DNA from: Promethearchaeota archaeon
Lineage (GTDB): Archaea > Asgardarchaeota > Lokiarchaeia > Sigyniarchaeales > SOKP01
Assembly: GCA_019058365.1 (NCBI GenBank)
Contig: JAHPZE010000007.1
Coordinates: 32,001-96,000 of the forward strand
Direction: 5' to 3'
DNA length: 64,000 bases
A model generated the notes under the pieces. The model saw only the letters and a program-made list of their open reading frames with translations. It was not told the origin of the DNA and did no database searches. Of the stretch, positions 408 through 1,976 are shown one piece after another. The translations under genes were made by a program, and so were the position numbers. Each line of letters starts with the position of its first letter. Within the stretch, counting starts at the first letter, position 1.

Positions 408-1976
408 ATGAAATTAAAAGTTAAAGAAATTAATTTTGAAACCGGAAATGCGAAAGATATTGTTTTAAATATTAAGGATGCTCAAGAATTAGGACAAAAA
501 GCAGGAGAACGCGTTATAGTAAAAAATATTAGATCAAAATCTATTGAAGAAAAGTACTGGGTAGCAATAATACAAATAGATTTCCTAGGTTCTATTGTTG
601 AACCTGGAGAAATTGGAGTATTTCTTAATCTTTTAAGAGAGAAAAAAGATTTAAAAAATGAAATGATTGTCTCTGTGAGACCAGCAGATCCACCCGACTC
701 TTTTAGATTTATACAAAAAAAAATAAAAGGACAAAAACTTTCTAGCGAAGAAATAAATAATATTATATCTGATGCGGTTTCTGGATCCCTATCACGGATA
801 GATCTAGCAGCATTCATAACAGGAGTATCTATTAATGGCATGGACAACGAAGAAATGACGGCTTTAACTCTATCGGAAACTAGGAGTGGAGAAATATTTT
901 ATTTCGGAATGGATGTCTACGATAAACATAGCACAAAAATCTATATTTCGTAGGTTTTGTTAAAAGGTGGCGTCCCAGGGAATAAGGTATCTCTAATTAT
1001 CGTTCCGATTGTCGCTGCTGCCGGATTAACTATTCCAAAATCTTCAACAAGAGCCATAACATCCCCATCAGGTACAGCAGATTCAATGGAGGTCTTAGCT
1101 CCTATTGCATTTAATCCAGAAGAATTAAAAAGTATTGTATCTGAACAAAATGCATGTATAATCTGGGGTGGAGCTCTTGAAACTGCTCCAGCAGATAATA
1201 TTCTAATAGAAATTGAGCGTCCTTTACATATGGATCCCATAGGTCTTATGATACCGTCTATTCTAACAAAAAAGCTTTCATTAGGAGTTAAAAAGCTTGT
1301 TCTTGATATACCTGTAGGGGAAGGCACTAAATTTCCTACAATCGATAAAGGAAAACAGTTTGCTTATTTATTTAAAGAAATTGCTGCAAATGTTGGAATT
1401 GAAGCAGAATGTGCGCTCACCTTGGCTCATCAACCTATAGGTCATGCGGTCGGTCCTGCTTTAGAAGCTAAAGAAGCACTTACATTATTACGTGATTATT
1501 CTGCTGGACCAAACTCTTTAATAGAAAAGTCTACTGATTTAGCTGGTATTCTTCTTGAAATGAGCGGAAAGGCTCAAAAAGGTATGGGACAAAGCTTAGC
1601 GAAAGATATTTTACGCTCTGGTAAAGCTTATGAAAAAATGAAAAAAATTATCGAAGCTCAGAAGGGAGATCCAGAAATAAAACCCGAAGATATTAAGCTA
1701 GGACCATATATTAAAGAATTTTTTGCTTCTAAAGATGGATATATAGTTGATGTAAATAATTCAATAATAAATCGAATCGCAAAAACTACAGGTTGCCCCA
1801 ACTCGAAGAGTTCAGGTGTAGAGATAATTAAAAAACAAGGTGCAAAAATAAAAGAGGGAGAATTAGTATTTAGAGTCTATTCCCATAATGAATCTAAATT
1901 AAGAAAGGCAGAAAAAATTTATAATAGTACGGGAGGTCCAATTCGTCTAGGAGGAATGTTGATTGAAAGAGTATAA
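408..1976 (+). CDS. deoA: AMP phosphorylase (thymidine phosphorylase family); join(408..934,965..1976), ~512 aa after removal of a 30-nt intron
   Basis: ORFs 408-953 and 957-1976 are in the same frame. Motifs DKHST/GGVPGNK, PKSSTRAITSPSGTADSMEVL, SILTKKL, QPIGHAVGPALEAKEAL, plus the N-terminal extension typical of archaeal AMP phosphorylases. Confidence 0.92.
935..964 (+). other. Putative 30-nt bulge-helix-bulge/loop (BHB/BHL) intron in the AMP phosphorylase mRNA
   Basis: TAGC(929-932) pairs with GTTA(959-962); 3-nt bulges ACA(933-935) and AAA(963-965); intron stem AAAATCTA(936-943)/TAGGTTTT(951-958). Cutting after the 2nd nt of each bulge gives CAT AGC AC|A GGT GGC = HSTGG and removes the in-frame TAG at 951-953. 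Confidence 0.82.

What the first reader, a model, noticed from the sequence alone, without database searches (positions are those of the whole stretch)
911..975. Candidate tRNA-type (BHB/BHL) intron inside an Asgard protein-coding gene: AMP phosphorylase mRNA appears to need splicing
Seen: the gene reads GAT AAA CAT AGC ACA [AAA ATC TAT ATT TCG TAG GTT TTG TTA AAA] GGT GGC GTC CCA GGG AAT AAG. A 30-nt insert with an in-frame stop splits the conserved phosphate-binding motif DKHS(T/I)GGVPGNK, while both halves are otherwise intact. The RNA folds into splicing-endonuclease geometry: a 4-bp helix UAGC(929-932)/GUUA(959-962), a 3-nt bulge ACA, an 8-bp intron stem AAAAUCUA/UAGGUUUU with a 7-nt loop, and a 3-nt bulge AAA. 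The exons can also pair (GGAUGUC 911-917 with GGCGUCC 969-975), giving a relaxed bulge-helix-loop on the exon side. Established: archaeal EndA cuts after the second nucleotide of each bulge. Applying that rule removes 935-964 and yields AC|A = Thr, restoring HSTGG and a ~512-aa enzyme. Archaeal mRNA introns are rare and best known from crenarchaeal cbf5. Inference: this Lokiarchaeon splices a metabolic mRNA with the tRNA-splicing machinery. That could be a regulatory switch, since unspliced RNA gives a 181-aa truncated product, and it would hide genes from standard annotation.
Basis: partly seen in the sequence, partly recalled or inferred. Interest (0 to 1): 0.95.

Follow-up and report, generated by a model that had tools for sequence, protein, structure and literature searches.

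The report
tRNA-type mini-intron in Asgard AMP phosphorylase
The AMP phosphorylase gene of this Lokiarchaeia-type (Asgard) archaeon is interrupted by a conserved 30-base hairpin shaped like an archaeal tRNA intron. Its mRNA almost certainly has to be cut and re-joined by the tRNA-splicing enzymes, something the papers I could search report for the coding sequence of only one other archaeal gene, cbf5.

Summary
A 30-nt insert (window 935-964, equivalently 936-965) with an in-frame TAG splits AMP phosphorylase exactly between adjacent profile positions. Removing it gives a 512-aa protein.

- **Real, not an artefact or a pseudogene.** The same insert, always 30 nt, sits at the same site in 52 independent loci (32 sequence variants) from Promethearchaeota/Lokiarchaeia-type assemblies. 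It is present in 7 of 23 assessable genomes of this genus. The interrupted genes have dN/dS of 0.05-0.10 at dS above 1.
- **The fold is conserved.** The central 4-bp helix and the 9-bp intron stem show compensatory changes (0 of 500 shuffles reach the observed covariation). These include a synonymous exon site that covaries with an intron base.
- **The machinery is present.** The genome has two EndA paralogues and RtcB.
- **The same architecture recurs.** It interrupts the genome's only RNA polymerase A' gene, a radA paralogue and an lsrF-like aldolase. In rpoA1, only a cut after the second bulge nucleotide restores the invariant isoleucine.

Splicing itself was not observed, because no RNA-derived sequence was found. 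The motif is the relaxed HBh' form, not a strict BHB.

This scan has reported similar Asgard mRNA introns before, on this genome (radA) and on others. I found no publication of them in the library searched.

The parts
408..934 (+). Exon 1 of AMP phosphorylase: Met1 to the first two bases (AC) of the Thr176 codon.
   Evidence: The ORF starts at ATG 408. It matches TIGR03327 positions 1-165. The same MKLKVK start is found in all orthologues.
935..964 (+). 30-nt intron as defined by cuts after the second nucleotide of each bulge. Removing 936-965 gives the same mRNA.
   Evidence: Absent from 16 genus orthologues and from other families at exactly this point. Always 30 nt in 52 loci. Unique in the genome by sequence.
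965..1976 (+). Exon 2: third base of the Thr176 codon, GGVPGNK... to the stop codon at 1974-1976.
   Evidence: Matches TIGR03327 positions 167-500 at E = 2.1e-133. The joined product is 512 aa.
929..932 (+). 5' strand (exon) of the central 4-bp helix H. It pairs with 959-962.
   Evidence: 100% of cells are paired in 23 sequences, with U-A to C-G in 8 of them. All four pairs form in 31 of 32 variants, across 7 pairing combinations.
933..935 (+). 5' bulge (ACA). The predicted cut is after 934.
   Evidence: ACA or ACT in all 32 variants. It is flanked directly by helix H and stem h'.
936..958 (+). Intron hairpin h': stem 936-944 with 950-958, loop 945-949.
   Evidence: 97% of cells are paired and 5 of 9 pairs show changes on both sides.
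951..953 (+). In-frame TAG inside the intron. It ends the 181-aa unspliced reading frame.
   Evidence: Seen. An in-frame TAA, TAG or TGA is present in all 32 variants, and 10 variants have two stops.
959..962 (+). 3' strand (intron) of the central helix H.
963..965 (+). 3' bulge-like AAA. The predicted cut is after 964. It lies in an internal loop, not in a closed 3-nt bulge.
   Evidence: AAA in 24 of 32 variants, otherwise AUU, AAU, AAC or ACU. No flush outer helix follows it.
911..917 (+). Distal exon-exon helix, 5' strand. It pairs with 969-975.
   Evidence: 97.5% of cells are paired. All 7 pairs form in 17 of 21 intron-bearing genes, against 3 of 15 intronless genes.
969..975 (+). Distal exon-exon helix, 3' strand.
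   Evidence: The third position of the Val codon is C or U in 21 of 21 intron-bearing genes, against 8 of 15 intronless genes.

Best explanation
Window 935-964 is a genuine archaeal endonuclease-type (bulge-helix-bulge family, relaxed HBh' form) intron in the pre-mRNA of AMP phosphorylase.

The transcript folds so that exon bases 929-932 pair with intron bases 959-962 (helix H). A 3-nt bulge (933-935) lies between H and the intron hairpin h' (936-958). The 3' junction (963-965) lies in an internal loop closed by a distal exon-exon helix (911-917 with 969-975).

The two-subunit splicing endonuclease EndA cuts after the second nucleotide of each bulge. RtcB joins the exons to AC|A (Thr), restoring the phosphate-binding HSTGGVPGNK loop and a 512-aa enzyme. 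The unspliced message can give only a 181-aa fragment.

- **Shown here:** the insert and its conservation, covariation of both helices, purifying selection, single gene copy, presence of the enzymes, and the same architecture in other genes of the genome.
- **Inferred:** cleavage by EndA, ligation by RtcB, and any regulatory use.
For: 1. **Exact interruption.** The halves abut at profile positions 165|167. All 7 genus orthologues with the insert give an intact 512-aa ORF once 30 nt are removed.
2. **Independent assemblies.** The insert is in 7 of 23 assessable genus genomes, 22 GTDB species representatives and 22 JGI metagenome contigs. It is always 30 nt, although the patterns allowed 27-36 and 19-49.
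3. **Structure conserved by compensation.** In 23 distinct sequences, 97.8% of cells are paired. Seven pairs have changes on both sides, and 0 of 500 shuffles reach the observed score. Slid registers give 31-56% paired. Helix H takes 7 pairing combinations, fully paired in 31 of 32 variants.
4. **Exon synonymous sites bend to the fold.** The Ser codon is AGC or AGU in 21 of 21 intron-bearing genes, against 11 of 15 intronless ones. The Val third position pairs in 21 of 21 against 8 of 15.
5. **The gene is not decaying.** dN/dS is 0.05-0.10 at dS of 1.1-2.0 among intron-bearing genes, the same as among intronless ones. Intron identity averages 82%, against 47% at four-fold sites of the same genes.
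6. **Single copy.** There is one AMP phosphorylase gene in a 100%-complete genome.
7. **Machinery.** Two EndA paralogues are present. One is closest to the crenarchaeal heterotetramer chains 3p1z_B, 3ajv_B and 2cv8. RtcB is present. Asgard EndA is reported as the (alpha-beta)2 type with the broad-specificity L1 loop (PMC5829648).
8. **Same architecture elsewhere in this genome**, each with exactly abutting profile positions:
   - rpoA1, 30 nt, positions 77|78, the only copy;
   - radA paralogue, 31 nt, positions 269|270;
   - lsrF-like aldolase, 32 nt, positions 250|252 with the junction codon as 251.
9. **The 31- and 32-nt inserts shift the frame**, so stop-codon read-through cannot rescue those genes.
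10. **The cut rule is specific.** In rpoA1 of two species, only a cut after the second bulge nucleotide gives the Ile of GHIEL found in intronless relatives. A cut after the third gives Phe. Helix H there also shows a compensatory change (GGAC/GUCU to GGGC/GCCU).
Against: - No RNA-level evidence was found. There is no intron-less sequence matching this organism's synonymous sites in JGI metagenome contigs or among the protein hits.
- The 3' splice site is not a closed 3-nt bulge, so the motif fails the strict hBHBh' definition and needs a broad-specificity enzyme.
- The fold of the single sequence is not significant on its own.
- The shape alone is common by chance in this A+T-rich genome.
- My genome-wide descriptor plus ORF-joining test showed no excess over length-shifted decoys. 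Such introns are therefore few, or my test is too weak to count them.
- An in-frame TTG follows the stop in almost all variants, so a separately translated 339-aa piece is not formally excluded.
Confidence: 0.86

Rival explanations
1. Split gene: the insert is never removed, and the enzyme is made as two polypeptides that assemble. These would be 181 aa ending at TAG 953 and 339 aa starting at TTG 957.
For: An in-frame TTG lies after the stop in nearly all variants. Gene callers predict the 339-aa ORF in many assemblies.
Against: - The break lies inside the Gly-rich HSTGG phosphate loop.
- The TTG is explained by the stem and helix sequence (UU of h' plus G of H).
- Only 1 nt separates the AGGU at 952-955 from the TTG, so there is no usable ribosome-binding spacing.
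- The model does not explain covariation of helix H with an exon synonymous site.
- It fails for rpoA1 and radA, where exon 2 has no start codon at the junction.
Confidence: 0.05
2. Translational bypass: ribosomes hop over the 30 nt, as in phage T4 gene 60, without any RNA processing.
For: A hairpin and a stop codon lie inside the gap. Hopping could also cope with the 31- and 32-nt inserts.
Against: - There are no matched take-off and landing codons. ACA or ACU precedes the gap, and AAA, AUU, AAC, AAU or ACU precedes GGU. The same holds in rpoA1.
- The stop is not next to the take-off codon.
- Bypass does not require a 4-bp helix between exon and insert, yet that helix covaries.
- The spacing matches endonuclease geometry in four genes.
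Confidence: 0.04
3. Pseudogene: a small insertion inactivated the gene, and it is decaying.
For: There is an in-frame stop, and public records annotate only fragments.
Against: - dN/dS is 0.05-0.10 with saturated dS across seven species.
- There is no second lesion in any copy, and the full 512-aa ORF is restored in all.
- The insert is far better conserved than neutral sites.
- The gene is single-copy.
- The same kind of insert sits in the only rpoA1 gene.
Confidence: 0.02
4. Stop-codon read-through: a 522-aa protein is made with 10 extra residues.
For: The insert is a multiple of three.
Against: - Ten of 32 variants carry two consecutive stops (TAG TAA), and all three stop codons occur.
- Ten extra residues would sit inside the phosphate-binding loop.
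- The related inserts of 31 and 32 nt shift the frame.
Confidence: 0.02
5. Assembly or sequencing artefact.
For: None found.
Against: There are 52 loci from many projects and assemblers, with 32 sequence variants and compensatory changes.
Confidence: 0.01

Closest known systems
BHB intron in the cbf5 (pseudouridine synthase) pre-mRNA of Crenarchaeota such as Aeropyrum, Sulfolobus and Desulfurococcales (Watanabe 2002; Yoshinari 2006; Yokobori 2009, PMC2738675)
   Same: - A short intron inside a protein-coding sequence.
- A BHB-like and often relaxed cleavage motif.
- Dependence on a hetero-oligomeric EndA.
- Patchy presence among relatives, read as gain and loss.
   Different: - A different phylum (Asgard, Promethearchaeota) and a different host gene, a metabolic enzyme.
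- It is one of several genes in the same genome with the same 30-32-nt architecture, including the only rpoA1.
- Splicing is shown experimentally for cbf5 but not here.
Non-canonical (HBh') tRNA introns of Thermoproteales and Asgard archaea (Marck and Grosjean 2003; PMC5829648; PMC11291895; bioRxiv 10.64898/2026.10.13.758758)
   Same: The same motif grammar: a 4-bp helix H, a 3-nt bulge and an intron helix h'. They presumably use the same enzymes. Introns are abundant in Asgard tRNA genes.
   Different: - The host is an mRNA, so there is no tRNA body to help recognition.
- Splicing must preserve a reading frame.
- None of the Asgard papers I could search mentions introns in protein-coding genes.
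BHB motifs in Haloferax volcanii RNAs other than tRNA (Schwarz 2020, PMC7714728, found).
   Same: EndA acting on an RNA that is not a tRNA.
   Different: By that note the cited case lies in a 5' UTR, not in a coding sequence. That organism has a homodimeric EndA that needs the strict motif.

Membership tests
Archaeal EndA-dependent (BHB-type) intron | Central 4-bp helix H formed between exon and intron | tested here: met
   929-932 pairs with 959-962. All cells are paired in 23 sequences, and 2 of the 4 pairs change on both sides. All four pairs form in 31 of 32 variants.
Archaeal EndA-dependent (BHB-type) intron | 3-nt bulge carrying the 5' splice site, flanked by H and an intron helix h' | tested here: met
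   The bulge is 933-935 (ACA or ACU in all variants). Stem h' is 936-944 with 950-958, 97% paired, with 5 covarying pairs.
Archaeal EndA-dependent (BHB-type) intron | Strict hBHBh' form: a second closed 3-nt bulge with a flush outer helix h at the 3' splice site | tested here: not met
   963-965 lies in an internal loop (921-928 opposite 963-966/968). The exon-exon helix 911-917 with 969-975 is distal. The motif is the relaxed HBh' or bulge-helix-loop form.
Archaeal EndA-dependent (BHB-type) intron | Removal at symmetric cut sites (after bulge nucleotide 2) restores the frame and the conserved residue | tested here: met
   The junction AC|N is Thr in all 32 variants. The same rule restores D in the aldolase, I in radA, and the invariant I of GHIEL in rpoA1 of two species, where a cut after nucleotide 3 would give F.
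Archaeal EndA-dependent (BHB-type) intron | The host encodes a splicing endonuclease able to cut relaxed motifs, and an RNA ligase | tested here: inconclusive
   Two EndA paralogues (C26, C12) and RtcB are present. This fits the (alpha-beta)2 type reported for Asgard (PMC5829648). I did not examine the subunit roles or the L1 loop.
Archaeal EndA-dependent (BHB-type) intron | Cleavage and exon ligation actually occur (spliced RNA, circular intron) | not testable with these tools
   No reads are available, and no RNA-derived contig was found.
AMP phosphorylase (NCBIfam TIGR03327, equivalog) | Full-length match above the curated cut-off of 535 bits | tested here: met
   553.8 bits over profile positions 1-500 when read through the insert. 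The halves score 108 and 445.5 bits. The nearest solved structure is the Thermococcus enzyme 4ga5/4ga6.

The most novel reading that the evidence does not exclude
These Asgard archaea routinely depend on tRNA-endonuclease splicing of mRNAs, including that of their only RNA polymerase A' gene. The introns would also be dynamic: gained, moved between alleles or precisely lost, for example through reversal of the cleavage-ligation reaction or through cDNA recombination. Splicing efficiency would then act as a control point for expression. That would be a protein-only mRNA-splicing system with intron turnover in the closest prokaryotic relatives of eukaryotes.
Probability: 0.2. Interest if true: 0.92.

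Novelty: new member of a known kind. Interest (0 to 1): 0.76.

Why it matters
- **Rarity in print.** In the papers I could search, endonuclease-type splicing inside a protein-coding sequence is documented for a single archaeal gene (cbf5), in another phylum.
- **What this adds.** Comparative evidence shows the same mechanism serving a metabolic enzyme in Asgard archaea. In the same genome it also serves the only RNA polymerase A' gene, a RadA paralogue and an aldolase. mRNA splicing would then be a routine need in the closest archaeal relatives of eukaryotes.
- **Annotation.** Gene callers split or truncate these genes. Many public records label the 339-aa 3' piece 'hypothetical protein', so metabolic reconstructions of these organisms under-count functional genes.
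- **A test system.** The patchy but exact presence or absence among close species offers a way to study how such introns are gained and lost.

Tried and rejected
- **RNA-derived copies.** I searched JGI metagenome contigs for this organism's exact exon flanks with 1-31 nt between them and found nothing. I also compared all full-length protein hits and cluster members with spliced translations of the 52 intron-bearing loci. The best identity was 96%, so none looks like a cDNA.
- **Genome-wide count.** A strict descriptor (4-bp H, 3-nt bulge, at least 6 flush stem pairs) gave 50,114 hits. Requiring that removal joins two open frames gave about 200 loci, the same as for decoys with length shifted by 1 or 2 nt. 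Tightening by hairpin energy, stem length or loop size gave no excess either. Only homology told the real cases apart. One candidate, on C43, was rejected as an antisense low-complexity reading.
- **Repeat or mobile-element origin.** No other copy of the 30- or 37-nt sequence exists in the genome within 6 substitutions.
- **Known RNA families.** Rfam gave no match for 700-1200.
- **ARAGORN on the window.** The default run found no tRNA genes.
- **A single origin of the intron on the gene tree.** This is not supported. At least 4 changes are forced by well-supported branches, and 0% of bootstrap trees show one clade.

Full report
**1. Observation**

The ORF from ATG 408 reads ...GMDVYDKHST and then KIYIS, and stops at TAG 951-953. 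A second open frame resumes with GGVPGNK at 966 and runs to the stop at 1974-1976.

The two halves match NCBIfam TIGR03327 (AMP phosphorylase) at profile positions 1-165 and 167-500. Pfam places the Glycos_trans_3N domain in the first half, and the Glycos_transf_3 and PYNP_C domains in the second. Read through, the gene scores 553.8 bits, above the 535-bit cut-off. It is the only copy in a 4.74-Mb genome rated 100% complete.

On its own the fold is weak evidence:
- The z-score is -1.2 for 77 nt and -2.3 for 46 nt.
- A strict descriptor of this shape occurs 50,114 times in this 29.5% G+C genome.

**2. Comparative evidence that the insert is real and constrained**

Distribution:
- In the same genus, 7 of 23 assessable genomes carry an insert at the same point. 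The other 16, and all orthologues examined from three neighbouring families, read HSTGGVPGNK without interruption.
- A degenerate pattern across the junction found 22 further species representatives and 22 JGI metagenome contigs.
- The record titles name Promethearchaeota/Lokiarchaeia-type assemblies from many projects.
- The insert is 30 nt in all 52 loci, although the patterns allowed 27-36 and 19-49 nt.
- There are 32 distinct variants, and every one has an in-frame stop (TAA, TAG or TGA; ten have two).

Selection on the host gene:
- Removing 30 nt restores a 512-aa ORF with the same start in all seven genus copies, with no second lesion.
- Among these copies dN/dS is 0.05-0.10 while dS is 1.1-2.0, the same as between intronless copies.
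- The intron is on average 82% identical between species whose four-fold degenerate sites are 47% identical.

This excludes an artefact and a decaying pseudogene.

**3. Structure**

On 23 distinct sequences, the structure I named has 97.8% of cells paired. It consists of helix H (929-932/959-962), stem h' (936-944/950-958) and the distal exon helix (911-917/969-975).
- Seven pairs have changes on both sides.
- None of 500 shuffles reaches the observed covariation.
- Registers slid by 1-3 columns give 31-56% paired.
- The seven-genome alignment gave the same picture.

Helix H is fully paired in every one of the 23 sequences. Its first pair switches between U-A and C-G. The U or C is the synonymous third base of the His codon, and its partner lies 30 nt downstream in the intron.

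Exon codon usage differs between genes with and without the intron, in the direction the fold predicts:
- The Ser codon is AGC or AGU in 21 of 21 intron-bearing genes, against 11 of 15 intronless ones.
- The third base of the Val codon at 973-975 pairs in 21 of 21, against 8 of 15.
- The 7-bp exon helix is complete in 17 of 21, against 3 of 15.

These rows are related species, so no formal probability is attached.

The 5' splice site is a textbook 3-nt bulge between H and h'. The 3' site is not. AAA 963-965 sits in an internal loop, and the exon-exon helix is set back. The motif is therefore the relaxed HBh' (bulge-helix-loop) form and fails the strict hBHBh' definition.

**4. Machinery**

- The genome encodes two EndA-family paralogues. 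One is closest to the chains listed as 3p1z_B, 3ajv_B, 2cv8 and 2zyz_B. From memory these are the crenarchaeal heterotetramers, and one search does not name the organisms.
- The other paralogue is more divergent.
- There is one RtcB ligase.
- Published work assigns Asgard archaea the (alpha-beta)2 enzyme with the L1 loop, which is linked to cleavage of relaxed motifs (PMC5829648).
- The cbf5 introns, the known precedent, also often use relaxed motifs and depend on the hetero-oligomeric enzyme (PMC2738675).

I did not examine the L1 loop or assign the subunits.

**5. The same architecture in other genes of this genome**

My descriptor scan turned up a 30-nt insert in the RNA polymerase A' gene at C52:2085-2114.
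- Its layout is H GGAC/GUCU, bulge AUU, a 9-position stem, a 5-nt loop, and AAA.
- The exons match NF006336 at profile positions 4-77 and 78-876.
- This is the only rpoA1 in the genome.
- A second species carries the homologous insert, with compensatory changes in H (GGGC/GCCU) and in the stem.

Following leads from earlier notes of this scan, I confirmed two more:
- A 31-nt insert in a radA paralogue, with profile positions 269|270 abutting.
- A 32-nt insert in an lsrF-like aldolase, with positions 250|252 abutting and the junction codon supplying 251.

Two of these four inserts are not multiples of three, so read-through cannot rescue those genes.

The rule 'cut after the second bulge nucleotide' gives the family-consensus residue in all four genes. 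In rpoA1 it is discriminating. It yields the Ile of GHIEL seen in all intronless relatives, whereas a cut after the third nucleotide would yield Phe.

An essential single-copy gene with this insert implies that the cell has a way to remove it.

**6. Evolution**

On a maximum-likelihood tree of the coding sequences, the intron-bearing genes are scattered.
- At least four changes are forced by well-supported branches.
- No bootstrap tree shows a single clade.
- Sister pairs differ only by the exact 30 nt (G019 against G002, G024 against G001).

This fits an old intron with repeated precise loss, or spread by recombination. I cannot tell which.

The intron sequence is unique in the genome, so it is not a repeat family.

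**7. Rivals**

| Rival | Main evidence against |
|---|---|
| Two-polypeptide enzyme starting at TTG 957 | Not formally excluded. It breaks the phosphate loop, does not explain the covariation, and fails for rpoA1 and radA. |
| Translational hopping | No matched take-off and landing codons. No reason for a covarying exon-intron helix. |
| Read-through | Contradicted by double stops and by the frame-shifting sister introns. |

**8. What is missing**

Nobody has seen the spliced RNA of this gene. I found no RNA-derived contig.

My attempt to count such introns genome-wide failed against decoys. All I can say is that at least four exist.

**9. Novelty**

Full-text searches found no report of endonuclease-type introns in Asgard protein-coding genes. 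The Asgard intron papers deal with tRNA genes only.

Earlier notes of this scan describe the same phenomenon. They cover this genome (radA, followed up; lsrF, uL11 and others, unchecked) and many other Asgard genomes. Two notes claim RNA-derived contigs that lack the intron; I did not check those claims.

I class this as a new member of a known kind (BHB-type pre-mRNA intron). Its interest is high because of the lineage, the number and kind of genes affected, and the consequences for annotation.

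Noticed in passing
G000 C52:2085-2114 (outside the window; locus L085:2085-2114): The only RNA polymerase A' gene of the genome carries a 30-nt insert with the same architecture, splitting GHFGH|IELARPV. A homologous insert with compensatory changes is in genome G017 (L115).
   Followed up: yes
G022 C59, locus L119:~590-680: In another species of the genus, rpoA1 is interrupted about 5 nt further downstream by a different, longer insert of roughly 85 nt with two hairpins. This may be a second, independent intron at almost the same site. Its boundaries are not resolved.
   Followed up: partly
G000 C9:554-585 minus strand (31.4 kb upstream of the window; locus L087): A 32-nt insert (H GCGU/ACGU, bulge AGA, 9-bp stem, AAA) sits in an lsrF-like aldolase. 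The exons abut at profile positions 250|252.
   Followed up: yes
G000 C46:248805-248835 minus strand (locus L086): A 31-nt insert (H GGGA/UUCU, bulge AUU, AAA) sits in a radA paralogue, with exons abutting at profile positions 269|270. Two other radA-family genes in the genome are uninterrupted.
   Followed up: yes
whole genome G000: ARAGORN with intron search finds only 30 tRNA genes in a genome rated 100% complete, and 19 of them have called introns. This suggests many tRNA genes are too interrupted to be recognised, as reported for other Asgard archaea.
   Followed up: no
window 951-953 and homologous positions in 32 variants: The sixth codon of the insert is always a stop (TAA, TAG or TGA). 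A structure-preserving change that removes it is never seen. This may reflect selection to terminate translation of unspliced mRNA.
   Followed up: partly
public records of orthologues: About 44 of the best 120 protein clusters are the 339-aa 3' fragment. NCBI records often name it 'hypothetical protein', while intronless orthologues are named AMP phosphorylase. This is a systematic annotation error.
   Followed up: partly
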